This document shows, in pieces, positions 1,819-22,974 of a stretch of DNA of 64,000 nucleotides. The notes below the pieces were generated by a model. That model did no database searches and was not told the origin of the DNA. It saw nothing but the letters and a program-made list of their open reading frames with translations. Source of the DNA: an uncultured virus (IMG/VR IMGVR_UViG_3300025922_000012) (Duplodnaviria; Heunggongvirae; Uroviricota; Caudoviricetes); the IMG/VR virus record IMGVR_UViG_3300025922_000012; one strand, 5' to 3'. How positions within the stretch are numbered: position 1 is the first letter of the stretch; each line of letters starts with the position of its first letter. Made by a program: the position numbers and the translations under genes.

Positions 1819-2016
1819 TTAGGGAGTTCGCCGCCACGGGGGGTTCGGCCCGCTGATGACATAGAACACCGCAATCGCCCCGATACAGAGCCGGATGACC
1901 GTCAGCACGTCTCCGGACAGATCGAGTCCAACGATGCGGATGAAGGGAGGAAGAATCGCCCATGCGAAGACACAGGCAACGACCGCGATCAGGATGCGCC
2001 AAACAATTCCAGACAT
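1819..2016 (-). CDS. Small 2-TM membrane protein
   Basis: Two hydrophobic helices; GGAG SD upstream. Confidence 0.7.
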   Translation of the reverse strand: MSGIVWRILIAVVACVFAWAILPPFIRIVGLDLSGDVLTVIRLCIGAIAVFYVISGPNPPWRRTP

Positions 2017-2551: not shown

Positions 2552-2566
2552 AGGTGTAAGACCAGA

Positions 2567-7362: not shown

Positions 7363-7405
7363 GGCTTACCTCTTGACTCCGGCGAGAATCTTCTTCCAGT
7401 CCATG

Positions 7406-7810
7406 TTACGGGACCGTGCCGCTGACCGCCCCGGTAATGAATCCGCTGGCGACCAACTGGTTCAAGATACGTTTCTCAAGACTGATCGTTGACAGGTTTT
7501 GCTTGTTCAACGAGACAATCAAAGAGGCCCCTGTCGGCGTGGTGCTCGAATTGTAGGTCACGTTCAACTGTGGAGCCGTCACCACAAACGCGCCTGCGGT
7601 CCACGGTAGCACCGTTACCTGAAACGTTCCGAGCAGGACGTTGAACTCCACCCGTGCCACGCGCATGACGGTCGCGGATGGCGTGGCGACAATCGGCTCG
7701 GAGAGGGTGATGACTTCCTGCCCATAAATGAACGGCTCAAGGTGAAACCCGATCCCTATCGCGCCCAACATCAGGCCAGTCATGATGGCTATTTGAATTA
7801 GTTTTCGCAT
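7406..7810 (-). CDS. Fibre-associated protein with predicted signal peptide or N-terminal TM
   Basis: MRKLIQIAIMTGLMLGAIGIGF...IYG-Q; TAATG-coupled to fibre gene. Confidence 0.6.
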   Translation of the reverse strand: MRKLIQIAIMTGLMLGAIGIGFHLEPFIYGQEVITLSEPIVATPSATVMRVARVEFNVLLGTFQVTVLPWTAGAFVVTAPQLNVTYNSSTTPTGASLIVSLNKQNLSTISLEKRILNQLVASGFITGAVSGTVP

Positions 7811-9609
7811 TACCGTGCCTCCAGCGCGACGATACGTTCGTTGAGTTCCTGAATCGCCTTGATGATGGGGGCGGCGAGCTGCGAATAGGCGACATCATCG
7901 GGCCGGCCTTGAGCATCTAGCCCCGCATACAAAGGCAGGCCGTCGAGCCCTTTGGGGCCGTGTTCAGCCACGTCCTCCGCGAGTAGTCCACCATAGGTGC
8001 GCGTGTTCGAGGAATCCTTTGAATTAAAGGTGATGGGCGTGACATCGAGCAACCACTGCCAACCGTCCATCGGAGTGATGTTCGTCTTGTATCGCGCCGA
8101 GGATGTTGATCGTTTGAGTTTGCCGGTGGCGTCGATATAGACATTTGCAGCACTGCCATCAGTCGCGCTGTAAATAGCGTTCGACACGATCGCGCCGTCA
8201 GCCCCGGCGACCGTGAGAGCTGCATTTCCTGCTCCATCAACAATCCGCAAAAAAGAACCAGTGACGTTCCCGATGTTCAGCAGGATAAAACCGGGATTCG
8301 CGGCTTCGTTCCCGTAGGCGTAGACTTCCGCACCCCGCGTGGTGCCGTTCAATCCTCCCCCAACAATTCCCTGGAGGGAATTATCTGACCCGTCAGCCGT
8401 GCTCGCTCTAAAATAGGTATTGGTTCCACTTCCCCCAATATACGCCGTGCTTTGCACTGTCGATGACAGCACTAACGATGTGCCGGTGGCTGCGCCGATC
8501 GAGGGCGTGGTGAAACTCGGCGCACCAAGCCCAGAAGAGAAGACCGGAACGGCCGAGAACGTGGCTACTCCGGTTGATCCAAGAAGATTGATTGCAGCCG
8601 TCATTCCGTCAGATGTCAGCACCTTAAACGCGGATCCGGAGACGTTGCCTGGATAGATCCCAATACCGCCTGGAATGGTGCCGTTTTCGTTTCCGTAGGA
8701 GACAATCGCTCCGCCGCGTGACGAATCTCCGGCACCACCGCCTGCATTGATCGTGATCGATCTCGTGTCGGATCCATCCGACGTGTTCTGCTCGATCAGC
8801 GCATTGCCGGTCGTGAACGTCAGGTTGTCGGTGAACGTCGCTGCACCGCCCGTCGTCCCGCAGGAGAAACTGTTCGTGGACGCGGTGTAGTTGAGATGGT
8901 TGCCGCCCGTGTCCGTGCAATTCGTCACGGCGGTAGCGACCCATGCGGACCCTGAACTGATCAGCGTCGTATCGTCAGCCGCCGTCGTCAGTCCGGTTCC
9001 GCCGTTGCCGAACGCAATCGTCGTGGCGTTCCAGACCCCCGTAGCGATGGTCCCCAGCGTCGTCAGAGACGTCTGACCAATGTAAGTAGAGGCGATGTCG
9101 GCCACAGCCGCTTGACCAACCCCAACCGCGCCGGCTATAGAGATCCGATCCGTCGTGCCAGCCACAGAGGCCGTGTAGTTGCCGCTCGTGTACGTGCCAA
9201 GCGCCACCGTCGTACAGGTTGCCGTGCCGACTGCGGATAACGCCGTGATGACTTGGTTCGTACAGGTCTGCGATGTGAAAGCTGACGGGACGCCTGCGGT
9301 GTTGATGACCAACGCGGTTCCGAGTGCCCCGAGATTGCGTTCCGCACTCAGGGATCCGTTGGCTGCACCAACCCAGTACTCCGCATCGGAGGGAGCCCCG
9401 CCACCGCCACCGCCGTTGCCTGGAAGGAACATGCCGGAGGCGCTGTCCCACGTCGGTACTTGCGAATCGGTGTAGATCCCCGGCCCGCTCAAGCCAGCCT
9501 GACGGAACGCCGCTTGGATTTGGGCTGGACTTGGTCCCTGTCCTGAGACGGACAACGCCGTCGCCAGAATGATCCCGATGACGAGCCCTTTGACTCCGCT
9601 TCGCATCAT
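7810..9609 (-). CDS. Tail fibre with C-terminal intramolecular chaperone (peptidase S74-like) and N-terminal signal peptide
   Basis: SSARYKTNI...GLLAEDV...IIKAIQELNERIVALE chaperone motif; GNGGTG repeat; leader MMRSGVKGLVIGIILATALSVSG-Q. Confidence 0.8.
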   Translation of the reverse strand: MMRSGVKGLVIGIILATALSVSGQGPSPAQIQAAFRQAGLSGPGIYTDSQVPTWDSASGMFLPGNGGGGGGAPSDAEYWVGAANGSLSAERNLGALGTALVINTAGVPSAFTSQTCTNQVITALSAVGTATCTTVALGTYTSGNYTASVAGTTDRISIAGAVGVGQAAVADIASTYIGQTSLTTLGTIATGVWNATTIAFGNGGTGLTTAADDTTLISSGSAWVATAVTNCTDTGGNHLNYTASTNSFSCGTTGGAATFTDNLTFTTGNALIEQNTSDGSDTRSITINAGGGAGDSSRGGAIVSYGNENGTIPGGIGIYPGNVSGSAFKVLTSDGMTAAINLLGSTGVATFSAVPVFSSGLGAPSFTTPSIGAATGTSLVLSSTVQSTAYIGGSGTNTYFRASTADGSDNSLQGIVGGGLNGTTRGAEVYAYGNEAANPGFILLNIGNVTGSFLRIVDGAGNAALTVAGADGAIVSNAIYSATDGSAANVYIDATGKLKRSTSSARYKTNITPMDGWQWLLDVTPITFNSKDSSNTRTYGGLLAEDVAEHGPKGLDGLPLYAGLDAQGRPDDVAYSQLAAPIIKAIQELNERIVALEAR

Positions 9610-9615
9610 GTGCTC

Positions 9616-10080
9616 CTACGGCCGTTCCAGTTCGATAGTGGCTTGGACGACGATGTTTCCCATCGCTCCAGCGATTTTGGCTGCGACGGATCGGTTGATC
9701 AACATCGTGTGCAGCGCCGGGACAACAGAAGCGGTCGCACTGCGATCGACGTAGGGAATGTTCAACCCGTCGATGTAGTAGTAGTACTGCGCGTAGGTTC
9801 CGGAGTTGACCCGCCGCGCATCCGCCGCATTGAACCCCCACATCCCGAGGAACTGATCGACACCAAAATCGGTGTTCTGGAAGGCGCTCGATCCGAACAG
9901 CCACAGTTCCCATGACAAGTTCTGCACACTGATGATCGATAACGCCGTCACGCGCAGGGGGTTCGCCACCGCCTGCATCGTCGTCGGCAGGGCGAGATTT
10001 TCGTTCTCGCTGGCATTCTGGGCGATGGCGTCCGTGTACTGCGTGCCATCGTTCGATCGAACCAATCCGAGAACTTTCAT
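9616..10080 (-). CDS. Beta-rich structural protein
   Basis: AGGAG SD; located between fibre genes. Confidence 0.55.
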   Translation of the reverse strand: MKVLGLVRSNDGTQYTDAIAQNASENENLALPTTMQAVANPLRVTALSIISVQNLSWELWLFGSSAFQNTDFGVDQFLGMWGFNAADARRVNSGTYAQYYYYIDGLNIPYVDRSATASVVPALHTMLINRSVAAKIAGAMGNIVVQATIELERP

Positions 10081-10089
10081 CCCGCTCTC

Positions 10090-10305
10090 CTACGGTGCCT
10101 CTTGCAGCACCTGAACTTGCCGCGCCAGCGTATCCACCCGTGCCGAGAGTCGCTGAAGTTCCGCCCGTATGTCAGCCACGCCCTGCATTTGCGTCAACGC
10201 TCCCACCTTCACTTCCACCGATCTAATCGCCGCCGAGAGCCGCTTCAGGTTCTCCGTGACTTCGTAGGGCGTCTTCCCGAACGTCGTCAGGAGTTCAACG
10301 GGCAT
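10090..10305 (-). CDS. Short coiled-coil protein (needle-like?)
   Basis: Heptad pattern, 71 aa, in tail module. Confidence 0.5.
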   Translation of the reverse strand: MPVELLTTFGKTPYEVTENLKRLSAAIRSVEVKVGALTQMQGVADIRAELQRLSARVDTLARQVQVLQEAP

Positions 10306-10488
10306 TTACTTCCCTGGTGCCGGGAGTGCCCCGATCTTGGCGGCGTTCGCATTCAGGAACCCAATGACTTCGTGGAGCGCCTTGTGATCTATATAGATAT
10401 GGATCGCTATCAACCAGATGAAACCCGCTAGGGCCATCCCGAGGAAGCCTTGTACAAGAGGCGCGAAGGCCTTGAAGCGTGTCCACAT
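10306..10488 (-). CDS. Small single-TM protein
   Basis: MWTRFKAFAPLVQGFLGMALAGFIWLIAIHIY; AAGGAG SD. Confidence 0.65.
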   Translation of the reverse strand: MWTRFKAFAPLVQGFLGMALAGFIWLIAIHIYIDHKALHEVIGFLNANAAKIGALPAPGK

Positions 10489-10531
10489 AGTTTGTCGTCT
10501 CTCCTTGGCCTGAGAGTATACCCCGGCTGCC

Positions 10532-12136
10532 CTAGAAGGCCGCGCAACTTCCGGCGATGCTGTCGGCGGATCCCCATGCCGCCGCTGCGCCACTGGAGAT
10601 GGTTTGGTTCTGAAGCGTCACCGTCGTCCCAGTCGATCCCGTCTGGATCGTCCGAATGTCTGCACGATTCGCCGCTGCGGCCGTCAAGTTGACGACATTG
10701 CAGACCCATCCGGTGCCAGCCGCTGGTAATCCAATGACGCCTGATGTGGCGATGCCGCCTGTCCCGACATTGATCCGAAACGCCGCTGCCGTTCCGGCCA
10801 CGCTTGGACCGGTACCAAACCCTGAACTGATCGTTGGAGCAGTTCCAGAGAACGTCACCACCGTCGTCAGTTTGACCGTAGGTGCTTGGATGGACGTGAC
10901 CGTGGGATCCGCTGAATAGGCCGGAGCAGTCGCCGCGCCTTGCGAGATCAGGACTTGCCCAGTCGCGACCGCTGCGCGACCTCCGAGCGTCGTCCCGTTG
11001 ACGGCGTAGAGCAGATCCCCGGTCGTATAACTCGTCAGTCCAGTTCCTCCGTTCGCAATCGGCAGTGTTCCGGACACATGCGTGGTCAGACCGATCTTTC
11101 CCCATGCCGGAGCCACACCGATCCCGCCTGAGAGCAACGCATTGCCTGTGGCGATGTCGGCCAGTTTGCTCAGGGCCGTTGCGCCTGAAGCGTAGAGCAG
11201 ATCCCCGATGGTGTACGAGGTTTGTCCGGTGCCGCCTTGCGCGGCCGTCACGGCGGCATTCGTTGTCAGAATCGTCGTCGCCGCATCTGGGAAGGTATAG
11301 ACCCGTGCGACGGTTGGGCCTGCGGCCGTGAAGTAGGCGATTCCTGTTCCTCCGTTGGCTGTGGGGAGGATCCCTGAGACATCGGCGGTCAAACTTGCTG
11401 CGGCCCATGTCGGTTCCCCTCCGGCATTCCCGTGGAGGAGTTGCGTCGTCGTGCCTAATCCTGCCGCAAGGCTGTTCGGAACGACGCCAGCCCCGCCACC
11501 GACGATGAGGATGTTATCCGTGAGCGCCGCCGAACTGGCGAGTGTCCCTGCGGCCGTATAGGCGAGGATCCCACCTGACGTACCAGCCGTGAGGCCAGTC
11601 CCTCCACGTGCCACCGTCAGCGTCCCTGAGGTATCTGTCGCCAACGCTACCGTCGCGCACGTCGCCGCGCCGACAAGGCTCAGGCTTCGGACAAACTGAT
11701 TCGTGCAGGACGTGCCCGCGTAGGCGACTGGAACGCCGGTTGTCGTCGTGTTCAGGATCAACGCCGTCGCCAGTGACGACATCGCCGTTTCATTTGTCAG
11801 CGACGTTTCCGAGACGCGCGTCCAGTAACTCGCATCGATCGGATTCCCGCCAGATCCGGTGATCGTTGCCCACGTCCCGCCGCTGTTTTTGACTTGGATA
11901 TTCCCGCCATTGTCACGAAGTCCGTACCCGGTCGCATCGGAGCCGGTGCCCCAATTAATGTAGTCACTCGCCGTGATCCGCAGGCGGGTGTACGGCGTCA
12001 CCCCGGTAATCAACGCATTCACGGCGATGGCTATTTGCGTGTTCACGGTCTGCCCGCCAAGCGGACTGGCGAGAACCGCAAACCCTAGAACCGCTACACC
12101 GATCCATTTCCAGCGTCGTGTCATCATGCGTCTCAT
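10532..12136 (-). CDS. Tail fibre with GGTG repeats and N-terminal signal peptide
   Basis: GTLTVARGGTG, GILPTANGGTG, AAQGGTG, GTLPIANGGTG repeats; leader MRRMMTRRWKWIGVAVLGFAVLASPLGG-Q; ATGA overlap with upstream stop. Confidence 0.8.
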   Translation of the reverse strand: MRRMMTRRWKWIGVAVLGFAVLASPLGGQTVNTQIAIAVNALITGVTPYTRLRITASDYINWGTGSDATGYGLRDNGGNIQVKNSGGTWATITGSGGNPIDASYWTRVSETSLTNETAMSSLATALILNTTTTGVPVAYAGTSCTNQFVRSLSLVGAATCATVALATDTSGTLTVARGGTGLTAGTSGGILAYTAAGTLASSAALTDNILIVGGGAGVVPNSLAAGLGTTTQLLHGNAGGEPTWAAASLTADVSGILPTANGGTGIAYFTAAGPTVARVYTFPDAATTILTTNAAVTAAQGGTGQTSYTIGDLLYASGATALSKLADIATGNALLSGGIGVAPAWGKIGLTTHVSGTLPIANGGTGLTSYTTGDLLYAVNGTTLGGRAAVATGQVLISQGAATAPAYSADPTVTSIQAPTVKLTTVVTFSGTAPTISSGFGTGPSVAGTAAAFRINVGTGGIATSGVIGLPAAGTGWVCNVVNLTAAAANRADIRTIQTGSTGTTVTLQNQTISSGAAAAWGSADSIAGSCAAF

Positions 12137-13566
12137 TGAAGCGGAACGTAGGGTAATGCGCCGGGAGCCGATGGACCCCAATCGTCACTGCATTCGGTTG
12201 TGGCTGGCGGAGCCTCTGTCACATTGAGCGGCGCGTACGGCAATTGCCCTGGATCGGCCGGCCCCCAATCGTCCCGGCATTGAACCGTCTCCAGCCCGTT
12301 GTCATCCGTGCCGCGATTCAGGATCAAGCCCCCATCTCCAGTGATCGACGGTCCTGTCCCAATCCCAGTATCCGTAGTTCCACGATTCAAGACGAGGCCC
12401 CCGGAAGCGACGAAGGCGTGTACGACCGCCATCCCGTTGTCGTCAGTCCCGCGATTCAGTACCAACCCGCCGTACCCCACAATGGTTCCGGCCGGAGAGA
12501 CGTTCGTTCCCCCGTTGTCGTTGGTGCCTCGGTTGAGAACCACTCCACCGGAGCCGTCGATCTCGACGTTGTTGGTGCTGGCGATCCCGCCCAATGCCTC
12601 CGTCGTATGGTCAAGTTCTCTGAATCCGGCTGTGACGTACTGCACCAAGTCAGCGGAGTAACAGACGCCCTCCCAATGTACGTTCTCGGTGTCCACGGGG
12701 GACACTTCAGGCGTCCACGTCCCATCCCCGCTGGAGGTCATCACGAGGTAGCCGGTCGTGCGCGGCGTGTTGACTAGTCGCCCAACCGCAATCCATTTGA
12801 GCGGATCCAGCCCGTGCCGAATGCTGTTCCATTGCAGGCCGTTGTTGGGATCCTGCGGCGTGGTTTCAAACACCCACGCATTGTCCAAGTTCCCCGAGCA
12901 GGTCATCACTTGCTGCGTTAGTGTGCCTCCGGTACAGACCGCCGCGAACTGCCCGGAATCATCGACGGCGATGGACTTCCACGCGCGTTTATACAGAACT
13001 TCAAACCCGTGATGCCCCGTCCATGTGATCCCATCCGGCGAGGACATGATGTTGATGTCTACGGAATTATTCGCTAGGGCGACAAATTGCCCTCCGTCGA
13101 AGGTCACGCAGGAGAGTTGCGCGAGCGCATCCGGAAGGGCAGCGGAGGCGGTCCATGTGACACCATCGTTCACGGAGTACATGATCTGCCGATTGCCGAC
13201 CGCCACAAAGATCCCATTGCCATAGGCGACGGCGAACATCGCACGCGCCGCCCCATACGGCGTTGCCGGTTGCAGGGTCCAGTTGATCGCATCTGGCGAG
13301 GTAAAGACGCACTGGTTGCTTGCGGATCCTGACAGACCGACAATCACGGGGGTTGTGACAGACCCGTTCCACGCGAGACTGCGAATGTTTCGGACGTTCG
13401 CAATCGGCTGCGCCGTCCAGTTGATGCTGTCCGGCGAGGTCATCACCTTGTTCGGATTCCCGCCGCCAGCCGCCACGTACAACCCGAGTTTGGACACCCA
13501 GATCACGTCGAGCCAGCCTTGTGTGCCGGCCGAAGGTGTCGTTTCAAGCGTCCAAGTAATCGCCAT
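12133..13566 (-). CDS. Virion protein with BNR/Asp-box-like beta-propeller and C-terminal repeats
   Basis: Repeated SPDSINWT/SPDAINWT/NDGVTWT/SPDGITWT; 4x GG(L/V)(V/I)LNRGTxDxG. Confidence 0.7.
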   Translation of the reverse strand: MAITWTLETTPSAGTQGWLDVIWVSKLGLYVAAGGGNPNKVMTSPDSINWTAQPIANVRNIRSLAWNGSVTTPVIVGLSGSASNQCVFTSPDAINWTLQPATPYGAARAMFAVAYGNGIFVAVGNRQIMYSVNDGVTWTASAALPDALAQLSCVTFDGGQFVALANNSVDINIMSSPDGITWTGHHGFEVLYKRAWKSIAVDDSGQFAAVCTGGTLTQQVMTCSGNLDNAWVFETTPQDPNNGLQWNSIRHGLDPLKWIAVGRLVNTPRTTGYLVMTSSGDGTWTPEVSPVDTENVHWEGVCYSADLVQYVTAGFRELDHTTEALGGIASTNNVEIDGSGGVVLNRGTNDNGGTNVSPAGTIVGYGGLVLNRGTDDNGMAVVHAFVASGGLVLNRGTTDTGIGTGPSITGDGGLILNRGTDDNGLETVQCRDDWGPADPGQLPYAPLNVTEAPPATTECSDDWGPSAPGALPYVPLQ

Positions 13567-13572
13567 CGGTCT

Positions 13573-13980
13573 TTACGCGATCTGCTGCGCGGCGACTTGC
13601 GGAACGACTACGGCCGCATCCCCGTTGACCAACGGCGTGTAGGGCGGAGCCGCCAAGCGTTCCGCGCAGACCAACAAGCCCAAGGAATCCACGATGAAGT
13701 ATCCGTAGACGGTCCCTGGCGCATCCAAGGCCCCGGTGAACACCCACGCTTGGGCGGCGTAGACCGCAATCGTGGGGACGCCGGCCGTGATCGTCCACGA
13801 TGCCGCCGCGAGACTCTTGGACGCATATCCAGCCCCAGAGACTTCGTTGAAGTCCCCGGCGACAGATCCGACAGCCGGAGTCGCGTTATTTCCGAAGAGC
13901 TTCAACGTCCACGGCGCGTGTTCATTGATCCACGCACTGAGGTTGGTCACTTCTTGGGCGTTCGGAATGACGAGTGTCAT
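13573..13980 (-). CDS. Small tail structural protein
   Basis: LKLFGNN...GAGYASKSL...VYGYFIVD pattern of small fibre-associated proteins; GGAG SD. Confidence 0.6.
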   Translation of the reverse strand: MTLVIPNAQEVTNLSAWINEHAPWTLKLFGNNATPAVGSVAGDFNEVSGAGYASKSLAAASWTITAGVPTIAVYAAQAWVFTGALDAPGTVYGYFIVDSLGLLVCAERLAAPPYTPLVNGDAAVVVPQVAAQQIA

Positions 13981-13987
13981 AGTTCTC

Positions 13988-16900
13988 CTAAATCAAAGCT
14001 CCAACCTGCCTCGAAACGCCGCCGAAGGGCTGAGCGACCACATACCCGTTCGGCAAACCCCAGCCCTGAACCCTAACCGAACAATCACGGGCGAACACGC
14101 GGAATGGCGATCCAGACGTAAGCCTGAACCGAACCCACTTGCCCTTCGCCGCGACAAGATTCTGGTAGTAGCGAGAGTACAGGCTGTTCGTGGTCGGCAA
14201 GACGTAATCTTCGGAGTCGTTGTCATGCCACACCGTCAGGATCACCGGGCAGTCGGCCTGATAGGCGATCAGTGCATCCCGCACCGTGAGGTATCCCGGC
14301 AGATCGAACGTCGTCTCTTGGGTCTGCCATTGGGTCGCCGCTTCAGGAGCCGGTTCCCAGACCCATCGCCAATCGAGCAGGTTCCACGGGTTGCTGTCAG
14401 CTCCGATGATCCTGACGAGTTCAGCCACAAACGGCGTCCACGTTCCCGGCTGGATCGGATAGGCGTACTGCACTTCTCCGTCGTGAACAAGCGAGAGGGT
14501 TGTCCCGACGTGCCCGCCTTCGTACTGCACTTCAACCGACTTGGCGACGTTGTAGGTGTTCGCTCGAATGACGACACCTTGAACGAATTTCGCGCCAACA
14601 TACCCGAGATTTTCCCAATCCGTCGCCCGCAGCGCCACCGAAACTTGCTTGGAGAGATAGGACGGCTCCCAGAGGTAGAGGATCGGCCGAGCGGTCGTTT
14701 GGACGCCGGTCAATTGGAGTCCAAAGTTCCGCGCCCAAACCCCTTCCCCGTCCGCGATCTCGATGATCGTTGTCGTTCGGACGGCACTCGCGCCGATCAC
14801 CGTGGCCGTTGAGACAACCGATCCGTTCGCGCTGACCGGCGTCACCGTAAAGCCATCTCCAGCGACCGCATCAATGACCGCATCGCCCCATTGCTTGTCG
14901 GATCGGAGATCCCCGCCATTCGCCCACGGCGGAGACAGCGCCCAATTGATCGCCGTCCCATCGTCAGTAAACTTGGTGGCATCTGCTTGATAGATATTCC
15001 CGTTCAGGCATCCGACGACATTGGCGTAGGCCCCTTGACCCGGCTCATAGAGACGCGCCGTGATCCCTGAAGCGTAGGTATCCAGTGTCCATCGTTTATA
15101 GGCGGGTTCATAGAACAGCGTGTGGTAGGCCCCGGTCGTATCGACGTAATCGAAGTACAACCCGCTATCGACGTACGTCAGCCGCATCTTGTTCGGCTGC
15201 GAGAAGTCTGGTGGATTGATCCCGCGAATCGACTGCGAGGCTCCGCCGTCCTGCGGGAAGATCGGACTTAGATCCGGATCGGTGATTGACACCGCATCAC
15301 TGCCTGCGGCCGTCAGATAGATCCCGTCCTTTCCGACGAAGTAGACCCCTTCTGGAGCCAGCGCAAACGCCCACTTGGCCCAAAGACCTTTCGTGCAGGG
15401 GGTTTCATCGCATCGGAAGGCACTGATGGATCCAAAGGTCGGCACGATCCGCAGGAGTCGATCCGAGGAAAAGACGTAGGGTTGCCCGTCGAAGAAAAAC
15501 CCGTTCATCAACGGTTCGCTGCTGGACGTGACGACGAGCGTGTTCACATAGGCGGTTGCATCCGGATCGTTCCCATGCGTCCAATGGAGCAGGGACGGAT
15601 CGGACGGATCTCCGCACGCGAAGTTGAACCACGCATTCCCAATCGGTCCACCCCAGAGCGCCGGCAACGGCTGCGCCAGTAACCGAGGGGACGGCATCGA
15701 CCAGATAATCGTCGCTCCTTCTCCGCAGTTGTCGATCACTTCCAAGCGACTCACAGACGTGGGCTGACGATAGAGCGCCGTCGCTACACCGTTGACGATG
15801 ATCGTGGAGTCCGCGCCCCATCCGGTATTGAAGTTGTCGCCGGAGACGCGCTGTAGCGAGGTACCGGCGAGTTCCGCCACCCCTGATCGCGGGACATCGA
15901 ACGTCGGCCACGGTTGGAACAGATCCGTGCGGAGCGTTTCCCCGCCGTCGATCTCGCTATCGGATGTCGCGTCGTCAAACGAGATCCCATTCGTGTTCGC
16001 TTGCGTCCCGGCGTACTGCCAGCGGGCAAGGGCTCCCCCGAACCGGAACCAATCGATCACGTCGGTTTGCCCTGCGGCCGAAATCTCTCCCGGTGTCACC
16101 GTGACGAGGCCCCGATGGGGATGGACACCGGCCCGCATGGATGGAGAGGGATTGCTTCGTTCGCCCGTGACGGTTGAACGGAAGCGATACCGATAGACGT
16201 AAGGCGGAAGCGTCATCCCCACGTCAGGCCCATAACCGCCCGTCAGGTAGCAATCCGCATAATCCAGCGTGATCGGATCGGTTGTCCCGAGCACTTGGAC
16301 GGAGATCGCCGCAAAGCCGATGTTGCTCAACGTCCGAGTCGCATCCGTCCCAACCCGCGTCAGATCCGCCACGCGACATTGCAGGGGGATCCATTGGTTA
16401 TCCCCAAGGGAAATCTGCCTAGATGGTGTCGCTCCAGCCGTCACGAAACTGTCCGCGTAGGGCACTTCTTTCGTGAGCCGCCCTTCGCTGTCCACTTCGT
16501 ACGTCGGCGGCGAGAGTTTGTGGCTGACCGGCGATCCCGGAGGCGCGGGAGAATCCGTCGTCAGGACCGGCTGTTGCCCATACTGATCCCCGTAGAGCGA
16601 GTCGGTTTGGCCCTGCGTGACCGCTCCCGCCTGAGCATCGGCCATCGTACCGGTGGGTGCCCCTTCCGTCGCCTGGATCGCACTCAGGAGATCGTTCGCC
16701 CGCCATTCGTAGAAGTAGTAATTCTCCAGAAAGGTCTGCCCACCCGGCTTGTTCACGTCCAAGATCAGCCGGACAGACTGCACGTAGGACAAGGCACTCG
16801 CCTTGAACCCGAACCGGATGATGTCCTCTGGCTGGACCGCTTGGTCGCCTACAAGGCCCCAATTGCGTTCCACGCCGGTCATAGCCGCTTGGATACCCCC

Positions 16901-18052
16901 CACGACCGGATCGGTGTCTGTGGGCGGCGTGAGCGTGTTCTCCACGGCATCGTCCGTGGCGGCGTCACCGGCAGATCGCGTGGTTTGGAGGTACGCCCGG
17001 AATGAGGCGATCCCGTCAATGTTCTGTCCAGCCGCAAAGGTGCCAGCCGTAGAGCAGCGGAACGACTGCCGACCGTCCGGCCCAATCGCCACGGAGAGGA
17101 TCCGGACCGCTTCCGAGCTGTTCAGAAGCACAAGGCTATTGACCGGGAAATCGACCGTCCGAGACACCGTGACTCTCGGAGGCACGGGTTGATTCAGATC
17201 CTCGTACCGGCGTCGGATCTCATCCGGTAACGGTGCTTCGATCTGCCCGACTGAAAAACTGCCTGCCGGTTGGATGGTACAGAGGCCCGTCGCCCCTACG
17301 TCGTAGAGGATCCGGCCGATCGTCGTACTTGAGACAGGCGGATTGACTTCCTGAATGATCACGCTTTCCGTCGCCAGCGTGACCGTCAGGCCCGCAACGA
17401 TTCCCGCCATGTCATCCAAGGCGATCGAGGCCATTCCTGTCGTGCCGCTGTCGTAGAGCAGGTACGTGACCGTTGTATTGACGCGGCTGATGATCGGGAC
17501 GGCTCCAACCGGGGTCACATCCCCGTAACTGACCCACGCGCCCGCATTCACCGATTCCAAATATGTCGTCTGGACTTCACCCAAGGCCGCAGTCGGCGGC
17601 GTGATCGGAGTCGGAATACCAATCGAGTAATCGTTCAACCCGCTGTTGATCTTCCGCATCTGGGTTGAATCCCCGATGTAGAGATACGAACGCGGGGTAT
17701 TGGCGGGAGAGGTCGAAACCGCCGTCAAGGGATTGCCGGAGAACCCGTTGATCTCCAGCGTGTAGGCCCCTGGAACAGTTGGGCCTGAGTAGAGCGAAGC
17801 GCCGACGCCGGCAAAGCGGTAATTGGTCCCGCCGTAGACCGACGTGTCATTCAACCGAAAGAGCGAATGCACCGCCCCGCCCAAGGCTCCAGTGGATTCC
17901 TTCGTCAGCCCCCATCTCGTGCCAATAGTTCCTTCTTGATAGGACCGGACATTAGAGGCGAACGGCGATTTTCCATCGGGTTGGGCGTCTTCAGGGAGCA
18001 GGCAGACCCCTCGATAGAAGAATCGCGCAGGGAGGCGGGAATAGTCCGGCAT
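13988..18052 (-). CDS. Tail nozzle / hub protein (podovirus type)
   Basis: 1354 aa; propeller-like region, YRYRFRSTVTGERSNPSP segment, C-terminal beta-sandwich domains; follows adaptors. Confidence 0.7.
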   Translation of the reverse strand: MPDYSRLPARFFYRGVCLLPEDAQPDGKSPFASNVRSYQEGTIGTRWGLTKESTGALGGAVHSLFRLNDTSVYGGTNYRFAGVGASLYSGPTVPGAYTLEINGFSGNPLTAVSTSPANTPRSYLYIGDSTQMRKINSGLNDYSIGIPTPITPPTAALGEVQTTYLESVNAGAWVSYGDVTPVGAVPIISRVNTTVTYLLYDSGTTGMASIALDDMAGIVAGLTVTLATESVIIQEVNPPVSSTTIGRILYDVGATGLCTIQPAGSFSVGQIEAPLPDEIRRRYEDLNQPVPPRVTVSRTVDFPVNSLVLLNSSEAVRILSVAIGPDGRQSFRCSTAGTFAAGQNIDGIASFRAYLQTTRSAGDAATDDAVENTLTPPTDTDPVVGGIQAAMTGVERNWGLVGDQAVQPEDIIRFGFKASALSYVQSVRLILDVNKPGGQTFLENYYFYEWRANDLLSAIQATEGAPTGTMADAQAGAVTQGQTDSLYGDQYGQQPVLTTDSPAPPGSPVSHKLSPPTYEVDSEGRLTKEVPYADSFVTAGATPSRQISLGDNQWIPLQCRVADLTRVGTDATRTLSNIGFAAISVQVLGTTDPITLDYADCYLTGGYGPDVGMTLPPYVYRYRFRSTVTGERSNPSPSMRAGVHPHRGLVTVTPGEISAAGQTDVIDWFRFGGALARWQYAGTQANTNGISFDDATSDSEIDGGETLRTDLFQPWPTFDVPRSGVAELAGTSLQRVSGDNFNTGWGADSTIIVNGVATALYRQPTSVSRLEVIDNCGEGATIIWSMPSPRLLAQPLPALWGGPIGNAWFNFACGDPSDPSLLHWTHGNDPDATAYVNTLVVTSSSEPLMNGFFFDGQPYVFSSDRLLRIVPTFGSISAFRCDETPCTKGLWAKWAFALAPEGVYFVGKDGIYLTAAGSDAVSITDPDLSPIFPQDGGASQSIRGINPPDFSQPNKMRLTYVDSGLYFDYVDTTGAYHTLFYEPAYKRWTLDTYASGITARLYEPGQGAYANVVGCLNGNIYQADATKFTDDGTAINWALSPPWANGGDLRSDKQWGDAVIDAVAGDGFTVTPVSANGSVVSTATVIGASAVRTTTIIEIADGEGVWARNFGLQLTGVQTTARPILYLWEPSYLSKQVSVALRATDWENLGYVGAKFVQGVVIRANTYNVAKSVEVQYEGGHVGTTLSLVHDGEVQYAYPIQPGTWTPFVAELVRIIGADSNPWNLLDWRWVWEPAPEAATQWQTQETTFDLPGYLTVRDALIAYQADCPVILTVWHDNDSEDYVLPTTNSLYSRYYQNLVAAKGKWVRFRLTSGSPFRVFARDCSVRVQGWGLPNGYVVAQPFGGVSRQVGALI

Positions 18053-19387: not shown

Positions 19388-19893
19388 TACCTATGCGCCG
19401 ATATAAGAAAGCCGCCAAATACACGCGCCACGGGATGTACGGAACGCCTGAATACACAGCATGGATCGACATGTGCTACCGCTGTAGCGATGCCGATGGC
19501 AATACCGACTATCACCTGTACGGTGGCAGAGGAATCAAGGTTTGCGACAGATGGAGACGGTCGTTCCTTGACTTCTTGGCTGATATGGGTCCACGGCCAC
19601 CGAAGCACACCATTGATCGGATTGACAACAACGGAAACTACGAGCCCGGCAACTGCCGATGGGCCACGACGCATCAGCAGGCGCGCAACCGTCGTGACAA
19701 CAGCCGTTATACCTATCAAGGGCGAACGCTGTGCTTGGTCGAATGGGCAGAATCGACTGGGATTCATCCGCAGACTCTTGCCCGACGACTCTGGCGAGGA
19801 TGGCCCTTTGACAAGGCCATCACAACACCGCTTAGAAGAACGAGTCTCACTCGCCACGGCGATCCTATCCTTTCGGAACAACGACCGGAGTAG
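19381..19893 (+). CDS. HNH-family homing endonuclease, antisense to late operon
   Basis: YGGRGIKVCDRW...TIDRIDNNGNYEPGNCRWAT..QARNRR motif with C-terminal HTH. Confidence 0.85.
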   Translation: MALPMRRYKKAAKYTRHGMYGTPEYTAWIDMCYRCSDADGNTDYHLYGGRGIKVCDRWRRSFLDFLADMGPRPPKHTIDRIDNNGNYEPGNCRWATTHQQARNRRDNSRYTYQGRTLCLVEWAESTGIHPQTLARRLWRGWPFDKAITTPLRRTSLTRHGDPILSEQRPE

Positions 19894-20089
19894 TTTTCGA
19901 CGGCTTGGCCTGCGGCTGTTCAGCGGCTTGCGCCGATGGAGCGGTTTGTGGACCCGGGTTGTTCGACGGCTTCAACTTGTTCACCGTCGCCCCAAGGTTC
20001 CCCATGTTCGTCATCAGATCCACCGATCCGCCTGCGGCCTTCGTGGACGTATCGAGCTTCAGCCCGTTCACCCGTGACTTGTACGCCAT
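19865..20089 (-). CDS. Small hypothetical protein
   Basis: AAGGAG SD before MAYKSRVNG. Confidence 0.6.
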   Translation of the reverse strand: MAYKSRVNGLKLDTSTKAAGGSVDLMTNMGNLGATVNKLKPSNNPGPQTAPSAQAAEQPQAKPSKTTPVVVPKG

Positions 20090-20124
20090 TGCGAATCTCC
20101 TTCGGTACGAATCAATCCAACGCA

Positions 20125-21165
20125 TCAAAAATTCAAAAGATGGGAACTGATGTAGTTTGCGTCTACTGGGAACGGAACGCCCATGCCAGTTCCGCCTCTC
20201 AATCCGTGCCCACGCGAGAACACCGTCTGAAGCGCCATGCCGTCATCGGTCTTCTTGGTTCTCGTCAACGCTTCCGCATACTGCGCGCGTGCCGTCTGGA
20301 TCAACGCCTGCCAGTTGACGCCCTTCATAGTCGGAAAGTTGGCCGTGTTAGCTTGCGCGAAGCTATACGCGTACCACCCGTACGCCCGATTCAGGATCAG
20401 ATCGTCGTCAATGATCGACGGTTGCGCCGACTGCGGCGACGACAGATCCCATCCCTGCTGCATGAACCGCGCGTAGAAACTTCTCCCGGACGTGGGAGCC
20501 GGCCACAACTCGTAAATCGGCGATCCTTGCTCCACGTTCGGATCCGCCGTATTGCTGTTCCCGTACGGCCCTGCCGCGCGAAAGAACCCGCAGTAATAGG
20601 CATCTCCCTGCGAGGTACGCTGCGGATCCGCAACGTCGAAGTTCCCTGAGGTCCAGTTCAACTTCAACTTGAACCCGTAGGTCATATCGACGATCTGTTC
20701 CCACGCCTTGAAGTTGCTCTGCGGCGGCGTCACGTAGCAGCGGTAGCACTGGTAGGTCGAAACCGTGTTCGTCGGTTCGATCACTATCCGATCCAACGTC
20801 AGGACGAGCGCCGCTGGCACCGTCGCATCCACCGCCATGATCCGGTAAATCTGCCCAGCCGTCAGCGTGTTCGATCCCCCGAAGCGGATCTGCATCTGGG
20901 TCAGGAGGGGCGTTCCGGCAATGTAGGGCGTGAGCGCCGCAGACGCCGTGGCGTCCAACGTCACCGTCGAAGCGTACTGGACGATGGAAATGGTCCCCGA
21001 CGTGATCATGGCAGGGCAGACAATCGCCCCATCGACCATGAGGAAACTCCAGCGCCGTTCCCGCTGAATGTCGGCCCATGCCCGCAAAACGTATTTTCGA
21101 GCGAGGATCGAACTGAGGCCGGGAAGCGTCCCGCTCAATTCACCGATCATGTCGAGGAGTGCCAC
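20125..21165 (-). CDS. Head-tail adaptor protein
   Basis: YVLRAWADIQRERRWSFL and YELWPAP motifs; follows capsid genes. Confidence 0.7.
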   Translation of the reverse strand: MALLDMIGELSGTLPGLSSILARKYVLRAWADIQRERRWSFLMVDGAIVCPAMITSGTISIVQYASTVTLDATASAALTPYIAGTPLLTQMQIRFGGSNTLTAGQIYRIMAVDATVPAALVLTLDRIVIEPTNTVSTYQCYRCYVTPPQSNFKAWEQIVDMTYGFKLKLNWTSGNFDVADPQRTSQGDAYYCGFFRAAGPYGNSNTADPNVEQGSPIYELWPAPTSGRSFYARFMQQGWDLSSPQSAQPSIIDDDLILNRAYGWYAYSFAQANTANFPTMKGVNWQALIQTARAQYAEALTRTKKTDDGMALQTVFSRGHGLRGGTGMGVPFPVDANYISSHLLNF

Positions 21166-21217
21166 CGGATGCGTCTCCTGCCGCCGTGCGGCATCTGCCC
21201 CCGGTGGCGATGAGGAA

Positions 21218-21580
21218 TTAGTAGCGACCTACGGCGAACAGTCGCACCGTCTCGCCGCTCAGATCAATGGCTCCGGCTTCCACACCCGTAGAAACCACCG
21301 TCCACTTCAGTTTCCACGAGGTTGCGTGCGCGGCCTGTTTGTTCGTGGAGGGATTGCCGTCCGGAGCTACGCCCACGACCGAATAGAGGCCGCTGTCCGA
21401 GAACCCCACCGGAATCACGGCATCGAAGTACTTGATCCCGGCTTCGACCGCATTCACGGTGTCGCCACCGGCTACGGGATCCCGCGTCAGCGCCGCATAC
21501 AGGACTGGCCCCGTGTGGGCGAAAACGGTTCCACGATGACCGCCGAAAGAATCCGGGTAGTCTGCGAGCACATTACTCAT
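21218..21580 (-). CDS. Putative capsid decoration / minor structural protein
   Basis: EAGAIDLSGETVRLFAVG C-terminus; position after MCP. Confidence 0.55.
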   Translation of the reverse strand: MSNVLADYPDSFGGHRGTVFAHTGPVLYAALTRDPVAGGDTVNAVEAGIKYFDAVIPVGFSDSGLYSVVGVAPDGNPSTNKQAAHATSWKLKWTVVSTGVEAGAIDLSGETVRLFAVGRY

Positions 21581-21589
21581 CGGATCCCT

Positions 21590-22264
21590 CTACTGCCCAC
21601 GGAAGTGAACGAGCACGCCCGGTGAGTTCACGACGTTCGCCGCCGCATCGCCGACCAGCGTCACGGTCAGGAGCAGTTGCCGCAAATCCGTCTTAAACGC
21701 CAACGTCCCCGTAGCCGGCGTGAACCGCACCGAATAGAACGATCCCGCCGTCAAGGTATTGACATTGAACGTCGCCGCCGTGGGGGTAATCGTCATCGTC
21801 CCAGAATCCGCCCGAACAGGTGTCACCGTCGAAGCCGATTCTCCCGAGGCCGGCGTCGGATAGGCGATGTAACTGAACACGATGCTGGAGTTCAAGGTGC
21901 CAGAGGCGAGCACGGCCGACTGCGTGCCGAGGCCCGCCGTGGTCGGCGCATACATGAACACCGCATCCGTGATCACGATCCCGTTGCCGGTCGTGATGAT
22001 CGTGTTCGGCGGCGTGATGTTGCAAATGAACGTAAAGGTGCTGGCCCCAGCCGAGGTCTGATTCTGCACAACCGGCGTATTCGAGGCCCCGGAAACCGTC
22101 AGCCCCTGCGTCCCTGTTGGCGTGCCGGACACCGCTCGATTGCACGCGCCCGGAGGCACCCAATACACGTAGGGGTTGGTGTTGCTGTACCCCTGCGCGA
22201 ACGCGGGGAGGGCGGCACAGAGCGCCAGCCCCGTGAGCATGATGAGTCGTGACCAGAAGCGCAT
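21590..22264 (-). CDS. Beta-rich protein with Sec signal peptide among capsid decoration genes
   Basis: GAGGAG SD then MRFWSRLIMLTGLALCAALPAFA-Q; Thr/Ser-rich mature part with two Cys. Confidence 0.75.
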   Translation of the reverse strand: MRFWSRLIMLTGLALCAALPAFAQGYSNTNPYVYWVPPGACNRAVSGTPTGTQGLTVSGASNTPVVQNQTSAGASTFTFICNITPPNTIITTGNGIVITDAVFMYAPTTAGLGTQSAVLASGTLNSSIVFSYIAYPTPASGESASTVTPVRADSGTMTITPTAATFNVNTLTAGSFYSVRFTPATGTLAFKTDLRQLLLTVTLVGDAAANVVNSPGVLVHFRGQ

Positions 22265-22295
22265 GATGTTCGATCTCCTCAAAGATGCGTACGAC

Positions 22296-22943: not shown

Positions 22944-22974
22944 GACTGTGCTCCTCGATCAGTTCAGGAACGGC

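What the first reader, a model, noticed from the sequence alone, without database searches (positions are those of the whole stretch)
7406..22264. Virion-operon proteins carry Sec signal peptides: possible export-and-assemble pathway for tail fibres and head decoration
Seen: four genes inside the structural operon start with a basic n-region, a hydrophobic core and a small-residue cleavage site followed by Gln. They are 21590-22264 (MRFWSRLIMLTGLALCAALPAFA/Q, between two decoration genes), fibre 10532-12136 (MRRMMTRRWKWIGVAVLGFAVLASPLGG/Q), fibre 7810-9609 (MMRSGVKGLVIGIILATALSVSG/Q) and 7406-7810 (MRKLIQIAIMTGLMLGAIGIGF..IYG/Q, weakest). The starts are supported by an SD or by ATGA/TAATG coupling. 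The MCP, portal, adaptors and nozzle have no such leader. Established: tailed phages normally assemble fibres in the cytoplasm, where the N-terminus docks to the tail, and GGTG repeats and the S74 chaperone are tail-fibre hallmarks. Inference: these parts are secreted to the periplasm, fold there, and join particles during or after inner-membrane lysis. Alternatively they act as exported receptor-blocking or decoy proteins.
Basis: partly seen in the sequence, partly recalled or inferred. Interest (0 to 1): 0.9.

Follow-up and report, generated by a model that had tools for sequence, protein, structure and literature searches.

The report
Phage fibre proteins carrying export signals
A soil phage of the kind that infects Acidobacteria puts ordinary bacterial secretion signals on both of its tail-fibre proteins, on a small fibre partner and on a protein encoded beside the coat gene, so these parts very probably mature outside the cytoplasm, where tailed-phage particles are built.

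Summary
Four minus-strand late genes (21590-22264, 10532-12136, 7810-9609, 7406-7810) begin with a basic stretch, an uncharged hydrophobic core and a small-x-small site followed by Gln. No coat, portal, adaptor or nozzle-like protein does. The leaders behave like real signal peptides in evolution. They are kept in 115 of 120, 112 of 120 and 47 of 87 relatives, they vary freely in sequence (about 26% identity against 57-60% just behind them), and they end at a conserved Gln. Leaderless relatives of the small 134-aa protein start exactly at the predicted cleavage site. Ordinary fibres that share the GGTG repeats have no leader (1 of 74 flagged, a false call). The mature parts carry invariant, even numbers of cysteines.

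Export is therefore well supported. Whether the exported proteins then join the particle is not shown. Indirect support comes from cultured Cellulophaga phages, whose MS/MS-annotated 'structural proteins' carry such leaders, and from the nearest cultured relative, Tunturiibacter phage Tunturi_1, where five spike-like proteins do.

This scan has already found the same phenomenon on other DNA. My five literature searches found no description of it in print. Verdict: real, a new variant of a known kind, mechanism only partly resolved.

The parts
21590..22264 (-). 224-aa leader-bearing protein encoded after the coat gene. Leader is residues 1-23 and the mature part starts at QGYSNTNPY. The mature part is a beta-sandwich with two conserved Cys (C41, C81).
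   Evidence: C41 in 39 of 39, C81 in at least 90%; AF2 pLDDT 80; only weak lectin/CBM/tailspike-C-terminus-like matches, TM about 0.3; same position after the coat gene in related IMG/VR contigs; leader in 115 of 120 relatives.
10532..12136 (-). Fibre 2, 534 aa. Leader is residues 1-28. A conserved N-domain follows, then four GGTG-type repeats. Four Cys are invariant.
   Evidence: leader in 112 of 120; C144, C160, C479, C531 in 69 of 69; Gln at the junction in 63 of 69; ATGA overlap with the upstream gene; repeat-sharing ordinary fibres lack leaders: 1 of 74 flagged.
7810..9609 (-). Fibre 1, 599 aa. Leader is residues 1-23. It shares a Cys-pair domain with fibre 2 and has a C-terminal S74 intramolecular-chaperone domain.
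   Evidence: PF13884 at 503-553; Cys 116, 132, 231, 250; 49% identity to fibre 2 over about 85 residues.
7406..7810 (-). 134-aa small partner of fibre 1. Leader is residues 1-30, and the mature part starts QEVITLSEP.
   Evidence: 47 leader forms, 39 leaderless forms that start M[APS]E at the same column; Gln before the conserved Glu in 43 of 47; AF2 pLDDT 86.7; no known fold; best Z 3.8; leader state matches that of the upstream fibre-like gene.
9616..10080 (-). 154-aa leaderless protein directly upstream of fibre 1. It is conserved next to leader-bearing fibres in a related phage.
   Evidence: 34% identity to the 168-aa protein that precedes the first leader-bearing fibre in G001; viral family without Pfam.
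12133..13566 (-). 477-aa leaderless protein whose stop overlaps the start of fibre 2.
   Evidence: (weak DUF6242 match, E 1.4e-4, below the cut-off).
13988..18052 (-). 1354-aa nozzle-like tail protein, no leader (context).
   Evidence: 27% identity over about 1400 aligned columns to Tunturi_1 gp31, annotated as a virion structural protein.
22975..24084 (-). Major capsid protein, no leader (context).
   Evidence: phrog_9953; 31% identity to the Tunturi_1/2 major head protein.
1819..2016 (-). 65-aa two-TM holin-like ORF at the end of the late operon. It is relevant to the proposed meeting of the two compartments.
   Evidence: no family above cut-off; the role is inferred.

Best explanation
The four proteins are substrates of the host's general (Sec) export pathway. 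Each leader is removed by signal peptidase I just before a Gln. The mature proteins then fold, and the fibres trimerise, in the periplasm, where their paired cysteines can be oxidised. The two fibres and the small partner form an extracytoplasmic module. It most likely attaches to the cytoplasmically built head-tail particle only when the holin breaches the inner membrane at the end of infection. The 224-aa beta-sandwich protein most likely binds the finished capsid, or host surface sugar, at the same stage.

Shown here by comparison: the leaders are real, conserved in kind but not in sequence, detachable at the predicted site, and specific to this clade of fibres. Inferred, not shown: export itself, cleavage, disulfides, and above all the late joining to the particle.
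For: 1. Leader retention: 115 of 120, 112 of 120 and 52 of 120 listed relatives of the three larger proteins. The misses are N-truncated calls or distant hits that share only repeats or the C-terminus.
2. Divergence: leader pairwise identity is 25.7% and 26.4%, against 56.9% and 59.9% in the next 60 columns.
3. Gln at the junction in 63 of 69 (fibre 2), 43 of 47 (partner leader forms) and 28 of 39 aligned rows (224-aa; most of the others show AQ a few columns on).
4. The partner family has 47 leader forms and 39 leaderless forms. The leaderless forms begin MA/MP/MS/M directly before the conserved Glu, which is exactly the predicted cleavage site.
5. The partner's leader state equals that of the upstream fibre-like gene in 14 of 14 resolved loci: 6 leaderless pairs and 8 leader pairs including the window. 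Three groups could not be resolved.
6. Of 74 complete IMG/VR fibre genes that share the GGTG repeats, 1 was flagged, and it is a false call. All have classic MA.. N-termini.
7. Cysteines: four invariant in 69 of 69 (fibre 2), four in fibre 1, two conserved in the mature 224-aa protein.
8. The genes sit inside the virion module and are translationally coupled to leaderless neighbours. No promoter or terminator signal above chance was found.
9. Related phage G001 (60 kb, terminal repeats) has the same set: a leader protein after the coat gene, two leader fibres and a small leader protein.
10. Cultured phages. Tunturi_1 gp12, 13, 14 (annotated tail spike), 16 and 17 (annotated virion structural protein) start with such leaders. 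Cellulophaga phi10:1 gp091-094 and phi18:3 gp085-087, annotated 'structural protein, experimental MS/MS proteomics', do too.
Against: - No signal-peptide predictor was available. All leader calls rest on my own hydrophobicity and charge rule.
- No experiment bears on this phage.
- The partner/fibre concordance comes down to about two independent changes on the tree (1 on starred branches), so it is not significant once relatedness is allowed for.
- In the 224-aa family, 23 of 95 members (one of them an artefact) have more than 15 residues, often charged or Pro-rich, between the hydrophobic core and the conserved junction. That fits a membrane tether better than a cleaved leader, and a tethered protein could not easily join a particle.
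- MS/MS detection in Cellulophaga virion preparations is known to me only from GenBank notes. It cannot separate attached proteins from co-purifying ones, and those proteins are not relatives of the ones here.
- Leaderless tail proteins (477 aa, 1354 aa) could serve as the true receptor binders.
- The host is unknown. Acidobacteriota is inferred from 31% coat identity and eight shared core genes with Tunturi_1.
Confidence: 0.45

Rival explanations
1. The proteins are exported but never become part of the particle. They act on the infected cell's envelope from the periplasm, or after release. They might mask or destroy receptors, bind or cut surface polysaccharide so that progeny are not trapped on debris, or exclude superinfecting phage. 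In that case they are fibre-derived accessory proteins, like lambda Lom/Bor or T5 Llp but built from fibre parts.
For: - Export is as well supported as in the best explanation.
- Exported non-virion proteins encoded among tail genes are established: lambda Lom, passage seen in PMC12309495.
- Pg phage proteins that obey the Q-rule are read by their authors as modifiers of the host surface (PMC10367356, passages).
- The 224-aa protein has a lectin/CBM-like sandwich.
- Tunturi_1 gp17 combines a leader with beta-helix and chitobiase-C domains.
- Long-tether variants of the 224-aa family suit a membrane-proximal job.
Against: - The genes are translationally coupled inside the core tail module, not at a module edge with signals of their own.
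- Both fibre-like proteins of this phage and of G001 carry leaders, which leaves no classic fibre for the particle.
- Fibre 2 has a strongly conserved N-domain directly behind the leader, where fibres usually dock.
- Leader-bearing proteins are annotated as MS/MS-detected in virions of two cultured phages.
Confidence: 0.3
2. The N-terminal segments are signal anchors, not cleaved leaders. They may be SAR-like or permanent. The proteins are held on the periplasmic face of the inner membrane and are released, or act there, only when the membrane is de-energised at lysis.
For: - The hydrophobic cores are rich in Gly, Ala, Ser and Thr (IAIMTGLMLGAIGIGF, GLVIGIILATALSVSG).
- 23 of 95 members of the 224-aa family have long spacers after the core.
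- The cleavage sites of two of the four (GG|Q, YG|Q) are not the canonical AxA.
Against: - Leaderless partner forms start exactly at the predicted cleavage site.
- The junction keeps small residues at -1: A, G or S in 55 of 69 for fibre 2.
- In the 224-aa family, 62 of 95 members have a c-region of 8 residues or fewer.
Confidence: 0.15
3. The hydrophobic N-termini are not export signals at all. They might be a structural element of cytoplasmically assembled fibres, such as a buried trimer core or a membrane-piercing helix, or an artefact of start-codon choice.
For: Tailed-phage assembly is cytoplasmic in every studied case (established knowledge). No predictor or experiment was available here.
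Against: - A structural element should be conserved in sequence, yet the leaders are the least conserved part.
- Leader length varies from about 16 to 60 residues.
- Starts are backed by SD sequences or overlaps and by independent public gene calls.
- The partner family does without the segment altogether in 39 of 87 members.
Confidence: 0.05

Closest known systems
Leader-bearing 'structural proteins' of cultured Cellulophaga baltica phages: phi10:1 gp091-094 (KC821618) and phi18:3 gp085-087 (KC821620)
   Same: They are encoded in or at the end of the virion module. They start with M-K/R, a hydrophobic core and a small residue followed by Gln. The record annotates them as structural 'based on experimental MS/MS proteomics analysis'. 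In phi10:1 they are followed by a leader-bearing pectate lyase.
   Different: There is no detectable sequence relationship to the window's proteins, and the host phylum differs (Bacteroidota). I saw only the GenBank notes. The source paper (PMC3732932) is not held, so I do not know whether the leaders were noticed there or how pure the virions were.
Tunturiibacter phage Tunturi_1 (PP887698), gp12, gp13, gp14, gp16, gp17
   Same: It is the closest cultured relative of the window's phage. Coat identity is 31%, and terminase, portal, gp9, gp11, gp30, gp31 and gp35 are shared. It is a podovirus of Acidobacteriota (PMC11924767, passages). Five consecutive spike-like proteins begin with leaders ending before Gln or Ala.
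   Different: Its leader-bearing proteins are large (149-1190 aa), at least one is a beta-helix type, and they are not homologous to the window's fibres. They sit between the gp11-like gene and the lysis genes. There is no counterpart of the 224-aa protein. The paper does not mention signal peptides or mass spectrometry (0 occurrences).
Exported accessory proteins encoded among tail genes: lambda Lom and Bor, T5 Llp
   Same: They carry a signal peptide, are encoded in or beside the tail region, and act in the envelope (Lom: PMC12309495, passage; Bor and Llp are recalled, not checked).
   Different: They are single small outer-membrane proteins or lipoproteins, not fibre-like trimers with S74 chaperones. 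They are not conserved as a multi-gene set coupled to tail genes.
Filamentous (Ff) phage coat proteins pIII and pVIII
   Same: These are virion proteins made with Sec-type leaders and assembled outside the cytoplasm (established knowledge; gIII signal peptide seen in a search listing).
   Different: It is a different virus realm, with assembly by extrusion through the envelope and no preformed icosahedral head or tail.
Endosialidase-type tail fibres and spikes with a C-terminal S74 intramolecular chaperone (Pfam PF13884)
   Same: Fibre 1 has the domain at residues 503-553. C-terminal relatives occur in many cultured phages, annotated as tail fibre or minor tail protein.
   Different: Those relatives have no leader. 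The distant hits that share only the C-terminus begin, for example, MASIVRIKRSE.
Q-rule signal-peptide proteins of Porphyromonas gingivalis phages (PMC10367356) and the Bacteroidetes Q-rule (PMC5837995)
   Same: These are phage-encoded proteins whose predicted signal-peptidase-I cleavage exposes an N-terminal Gln (passages).
   Different: Those are five genes of unknown function, not fibres. The rule is described as specific to Bacteroidetes (abstract in the listing), and that paper has no mention of Acidobacteria.

Membership tests
Sec/signal-peptidase-I (SPI) signal peptide | Positively charged n-region at the extreme N-terminus | tested here: met
   Net charge before the hydrophobic core is +2 for 7406-7810 and 7810-9609. 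For 21590-22264 it is +2 from the upstream TTG start that one search scored; from the accepted ATG the n-region MRFWSR also holds two Arg. For 10532-12136 it is +8 from the upstream TTG start scored; from the accepted ATG I count six basic residues in MRRMMTRRWK.
Sec/signal-peptidase-I (SPI) signal peptide | Uncharged hydrophobic h-region of about 8-20 residues | tested here: met
   Windows of 17 residues with mean Kyte-Doolittle hydropathy 1.75-1.92 in all four. AF2 models show helix 2-17 and 2-16.
Sec/signal-peptidase-I (SPI) signal peptide | c-region with small residues at -1 and -3 | tested here: met
   The sites are AFA|Q, VSG|Q, LGG|Q and IYG|Q. Only the first is canonical AxA. In the fibre 2 family, -1 is A, G or S in 55 of 69.
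Sec/signal-peptidase-I (SPI) signal peptide | Evolutionary signature: kept in kind, free in sequence and length, sharp boundary to a conserved mature part | tested here: met
   Leaderless partner forms start at the boundary.
Sec/signal-peptidase-I (SPI) signal peptide | Score from a trained predictor (SignalP, Phobius, DeepTMHMM) | not testable with these tools
   No such predictor is on hand. My own rule was used, with controls.
Sec/signal-peptidase-I (SPI) signal peptide | Sec-dependent translocation and cleavage shown by experiment | not testable with these tools
   Needs PhoA/BlaM fusions or N-terminal mapping.
Peptidase_S74 intramolecular chaperone (PF13884) | Match to the Pfam model at or above the gathering score | tested here: met
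   Fibre 1 residues 503-553, 22.9 bits against a cut-off of 22, E 1.1e-4. This is marginal, but it is backed by tblastn matches of the C-terminus to 98 phage records.
Virion tail fibre (component of the particle) | Physical presence on the particle | not testable with these tools
   Only position in the tail module, fibre-type repeats and the S74 domain speak for it.
Virion tail fibre (component of the particle) | Leaderless N-terminal domain that docks to the tail in the cytoplasm | tested here: not met
   Both fibres start with leaders, whereas 73 of 74 repeat-sharing fibres have plain N-termini.
Bacteroidetes Q-rule | Gln at +1 of the SPI cleavage site in most exported proteins | tested here: met
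   Gln follows the site in 4 of 4 leaders in the window. At the family level it is 63 of 69 and 43 of 47. This was tested on the phage's proteins only, not on a host proteome.
Bacteroidetes Q-rule | Host belongs to Bacteroidota | tested here: inconclusive
   The only cultured relatives infect Acidobacteriota. No prophage relative turned up in 185,579 species genomes apart from one weak partial hit. The host is unknown.
Capsid decoration protein (for 21590-22264) | Fold or sequence relationship to a known decoration protein, or binding to the capsid | tested here: inconclusive
   Only the position after the coat gene is conserved. Fold matches are weak and of the lectin/CBM/tailspike-C-terminus type. 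No binding test was run.

The most novel reading that the evidence does not exclude
A whole lineage of tailed phages, with cultured members on Acidobacteriota and analogous lineages on Bacteroidota, builds its particle in two compartments. Head and tail are built in the cytoplasm. The receptor-binding fibres, their small partner and a capsid-associated sugar-binding protein are built in the periplasm, where they gain disulfides and a blocked pyroGlu N-terminus. Infectious virions are completed only in the moments after the holin opens the inner membrane.
Probability: 0.3. Interest if true: 0.9.

Novelty: new variant of a known kind. Interest (0 to 1): 0.72.

Why it matters
Textbook assembly of tailed phages is wholly cytoplasmic. 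If the host-recognition parts are routinely routed through Sec in large, abundant soil and aquatic phage groups, several things follow.

1. Assembly has a late, extracytoplasmic step that depends on how the lysis events are ordered.
2. Fibres can carry disulfides, pyroGlu ends and perhaps glycans that the cytoplasm cannot make. That would matter for stability in acid soils.
3. Annotation and host-range engineering pipelines that express such fibres in the cytoplasm would fail.
4. Signal-peptide style (for example Gln at +1) becomes a host-prediction clue for uncultured phages.

The window also gives a practical handle. Its closest cultured relatives (Tunturi 1/2) show the same trait, so the question can be tested at the bench.

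Tried and rejected
- Complex prediction: fibre 2 N-domain (residues 29-150, three copies, 25-row alignment) with the 154-aa leaderless neighbour (2-row alignment). No verdict; score 0.00 against a mark of 0.32, and the controls were not run. This says nothing either way.
- Fold of the 224-aa protein: Foldseek against PDB and BFVD gave only weak beta-sandwich matches (TM about 0.3), so no family is named.
- Fold of the 134-aa partner: no Foldseek match at E <= 0.001 and best VIA Z of 3.8.
- Pfam and PHROGs on 21 late proteins named only the coat, the portal, S74 and weak glycine-zipper matches. Pfam on nine further ORFs, including the lysis region, named nothing above cut-off.
- Single-protein scan of IMG/VR with the 224-aa protein found nothing; the alignment scan found 10 loci.
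- The fibre 1 scan found only 3 weak loci.
- The full partner alignment A3 was too divergent for a scan; a 21-row subset worked.
- The scan of genome contigs for prophage relatives of the 224-aa family gave one weak partial hit in an Actinomycetota MAG (E 1e-4), which I do not trust.
- The phylogenetically corrected test of partner/fibre leader concordance gave only 1-2 independent contrasts and is not significant. On the 87-tip partner tree the leader state needs 19 changes against 24-31 for the ten shuffles printed (of 200 run), but that tree is poorly resolved.
- The upstream genes in L104, L106/L107 and L109/L111 could not be resolved and were left out of the concordance count.
- No whole genome is held for the window.
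- Holmfeldt et al. 2013 is not held.
- Five literature searches and passages read in PMC5723332, PMC12309495, PMC10367356 and PMC11924767 gave no description of leader-bearing tail fibres. Subscription journals are not covered.
- Promoter and terminator scan of 6000-25500: nothing above chance.
- A lipoprotein reading of LALC in 21590-22264 was rejected. Leu at -1 is atypical for a lipobox (recalled rule), and the Cys is not conserved in relatives.

Full report
**What is there**

The window is a tailed-phage genome at about 60% GC, with its late genes on the minus strand. The contig that holds its proteins is 66.3 kb long, and no whole genome is held.

Profile searches name only the coat (phrog_9953), the portal (weak phrog_156) and an S74 chaperone domain. 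The only cultured relatives are the podoviruses Tunturi_1 and Tunturi_2 of the acidobacterium Tunturiibacter psychrotolerans, at 31% coat identity. Eight core proteins match Tunturi_1: terminase, portal, coat, gp9, gp11, gp30, gp31 and gp35. I infer an Acidobacteriota-type podovirus; the host itself is not shown.

The late gene order, in the direction of transcription, is:
- terminase 29719-31959
- portal 26120-28174
- scaffold-like 24137-25030
- coat 22975-24084
- 22296-22943
- 21590-22264 (leader)
- 21218-21580
- 20125-21165
- 18053-19387
- nozzle-like 13988-18052
- 13573-13980
- 12133-13566
- 10532-12136 (leader, fibre 2)
- 10090-10305
- 9616-10080
- 7810-9609 (leader, fibre 1)
- 7406-7810 (leader)
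- three Gly-rich or large ejection-like proteins
- small membrane proteins

**The observation**

Their starts are backed by GAGGAG or TAGGAG Shine-Dalgarno sequences or by ATGA/TAATG overlaps, and by independent public gene calls.

I had no signal-peptide predictor, so I wrote a simple rule. It asks for net positive charge, then at least 9 uncharged residues with mean hydropathy of at least 1.6-1.7, and in the strict form a small-x-small site. Among 101 greedy ORFs of the window it flagged these four, a 65-aa two-TM holin-like ORF and five doubtful others. It flagged none of the core virion proteins. The rule's false-positive rate was 1 of 74 on leaderless fibres. On internal-Met starts it was 0 of 184, 9 of 310 and 11 of 229.

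**Are the leaders real? Comparative evidence**

*The 224-aa protein.* It has 164 relatives at E <= 0.001, and 115 of the 120 listed have a leader. Of the five without one, three are N-truncated, one has an over-long call, and P0106 may be truly leaderless. The leaders differ in length and sequence, and the conserved part begins sharply at QGYS.

*Fibre 2.* Of the best 120 relatives, 112 have a leader. The eight misses are seven distant hits that share only the repeats and one truncated call. Directly behind the leader sits a strongly conserved domain, QPFxTQIQIAINQLTTGVTPF.

*Fibre 1.* The few close relatives keep a leader. Many distant fibre-like hits have one as well, 52 of 120 in all. Another class that shares only the C-terminus starts MASIVRIKRSE and has none.

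*Divergence.* Leader columns are 25.7% and 26.4% identical pairwise, against 56.9% and 59.9% in the next 60 columns. Gln occupies the junction in 63 of 69 (fibre 2), and -1 is A, G or S in 55 of 69.

*Control.* A scan of IMG/VR with the fibre 2 alignment picked up 79 loci through the GGTG repeats. Of their 74 complete genes, only one was flagged, and it is a false call. All start with ordinary N-termini such as MALVVKDRV or MANTIRIKRR. The leader is thus a trait of one clade, which has also replaced the usual N-terminal domain. It is not a trait of fibres in general.

**The small partner gives the cleanest evidence**

They fall into two forms:
- 47 forms carry a leader that ends ..A|QE.VTLTTP. 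Gln precedes the conserved Glu in 43 of these 47.
- 39 forms lack a leader and begin MA, MP, MS or M directly before that same Glu.

So nature has made the protein with and without the segment, and the cut is exactly at the predicted cleavage site.

In IMG/VR contexts the partner's state matches that of the fibre-like gene just upstream in all 14 resolved cases:
- 6 leaderless pairs: L098, L099, L101, L102, L103, L105.
- 8 leader pairs: the window, L100, L108, L110, L112, L113, L114 and the L115-117 group.

Three groups (L104, L106/107, L109/111) could not be resolved and were dropped. This fits two proteins that must meet in one compartment. The caveat is that on the tree of these 17 partners the state needs only two changes, and only 1-2 independent contrasts exist, so the concordance is not statistically significant once relatedness is allowed for.

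**Cysteines**

The mature exported proteins carry even numbers of conserved cysteines:
- Fibre 2 has four, invariant in 69 of 69 (C144/C160 and C479/C531).
- Fibre 1 has four (116/132 and 231/250); the first pair lies in the domain it shares with fibre 2.
- The mature 224-aa protein has two (C41 in 39 of 39, C81 in at least 90%).

This is what oxidative folding in the periplasm would favour. It is suggestive only, because leaderless virion proteins here also contain cysteines.

**What the proteins are**

- Fibre 1 ends in an S74 intramolecular chaperone, and its C-terminus matches tail-fibre or minor-tail genes in 98 phage records.
- Fibre 2 has four GGTG-type repeats.
- The 224-aa protein models as an N-terminal helix plus a beta-sandwich (pLDDT 80). 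It has only weak resemblance to lectin, CBM and tailspike C-terminal domains. Its gene keeps its place right after the coat gene, or after the 215-aa gene, in related contigs.
- The partner models well (pLDDT 86.7) but matches no solved fold.

**A related phage and cultured phages**

Record G001 (60 kb, terminal repeats) carries the same set: a leader protein after the coat gene, two leader fibres with N-domains like that of fibre 2, and a small leader protein. A homologue of the leaderless 154-aa protein sits directly before the first fibre.

In Tunturi_1, gp12, 13, 14 (annotated tail spike), 16 and 17 (annotated virion structural protein; beta-helix and chitobiase-C domains) start with leaders. 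The paper on these phages does not mention signal peptides or mass spectrometry (0 occurrences).

Earlier notes of this scan pointed to Cellulophaga phages, and I checked that lead myself:
- In phi10:1 (KC821618), gp091-094 are annotated 'structural protein, experimental MS/MS proteomics' and all start with leaders ending before Gln, as does the pectate lyase gp095.
- In phi18:3 (KC821620), gp085-087 do so, while nine other MS-annotated structural proteins that I tested do not.

I could not read the source paper.

**How it most likely works**

*Supported by comparison:* the four proteins are routed to the Sec pathway, and the leader is a separable module cut before Gln.

*Inferred:* the proteins fold and trimerise in the periplasm, form disulfides, and may cyclise their N-terminal Gln.

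*Inferred with less confidence:* the fibres dock on the cytoplasmically built particle when the holin opens the inner membrane, and the 224-aa protein binds capsid or host sugar then. Late addition is mechanistically plausible, because fibres, tailspikes and decoration proteins of model phages bind finished particles in vitro (established knowledge, recalled). Nothing here shows it.

**Points against**

About a quarter of the 224-aa family (23 of 95, one an artefact) has a long, charged or Pro-rich spacer between the hydrophobic core and the conserved junction. That looks like a membrane tether; G001's copy is of this kind. Leaderless tail proteins of 477 and 1354 aa could be the real receptor binders. 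The complex prediction I tried gave no verdict (see the Tried and rejected section).

**Comparison with what is known, and novelty**

Exported proteins encoded among tail genes are known (lambda Lom; passage in PMC12309495). So are phage proteins that follow the Bacteroidetes Q-rule (PMC10367356). Filamentous phages make coat proteins with leaders.

Five full-text searches found no description of tailed-phage fibres with conserved cleavable leaders. Subscription journals are not covered.

This scan has reported the same phenomenon on more than fifteen other windows, including soil phages of the Acidobacteria type. What this window adds:
- the on/off natural experiment in the partner family;
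- the leaderless-fibre control;
- the invariant cysteine pairs;
- a cultured relative in which to test the idea.

I rate it a new variant of a known kind and well worth a bench test, with the assembly step still open.

Noticed in passing
Family of window 21590-22264 (proteins P0001-P0120): Of 95 members with a definable junction, 62 have 8 residues or fewer between the hydrophobic core and the conserved A|QG. Ten have 9-15 and 23 have more than 15 (one of these, P0102, is an artefact). The long spacers are charged or Pro-rich, yet the 'LLA|QG' junction stays conserved. That looks like a membrane tether, or a second processing step.
   Followed up: partly
Proteins P0080, P0091, P0097-P0099, P0108-P0120 (relatives of 21590-22264): Longer forms (about 300-390 aa) carry an extra domain between the leader and the conserved sandwich. 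P0106 (197 aa) seems to lack a leader altogether.
   Followed up: no
L100 439-7576: A low-GC IMG/VR contig has at least six consecutive leader-bearing genes (72 to 1252 aa) ending with a partner homologue. Here the residue after the predicted site is Ala or Asp, not Gln. The +1 residue therefore seems to follow the host lineage.
   Followed up: partly
window 19381-19893 (+): A 170-aa ORF lies on the opposite strand in the only sizeable gap (19387-20125) of the late operon. It has no Pfam match. Tunturi_1 has HNH endonuclease genes scattered among its structural genes, so a homing-type insert is one guess.
   Followed up: partly
window 12133-13566 (-): The 477-aa leaderless protein ends with four repeats of GG(L/V)VLNRGT(D/N)DNG and two copies of DDWGP..PG.LPY.PL. 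There is a weak beta-propeller-like DUF6242 match below cut-off. Its stop overlaps the start of fibre 2.
   Followed up: no
window 720-2890 (-): The presumed lysis region has a 65-aa two-TM ORF (1819-2016), a 107-aa protein with an N-terminal TM segment (2567-2890), a 174-aa protein with a C-terminal hydrophobic segment, and a Pro-rich 384-aa protein. Pfam recognises no endolysin.
   Followed up: partly
window 7810-9609 and 10532-12136: The two fibres share one domain of about 85 residues (49% identity) that holds a conserved Cys pair (..TSxTCTNQ..G.ATC.TVAL). The same domain recurs in many metagenomic leader-bearing fibre-like proteins, after a Gly run and an A-P-x-x-A-x-Y-W motif.
   Followed up: partly
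window, all four leaders; families: Gln follows the predicted cleavage site in 4 of 4 leaders and in most relatives. That is a 'Q-rule' so far described for Bacteroidetes only, whereas the phage's cultured relatives infect Acidobacteriota.
   Followed up: partly
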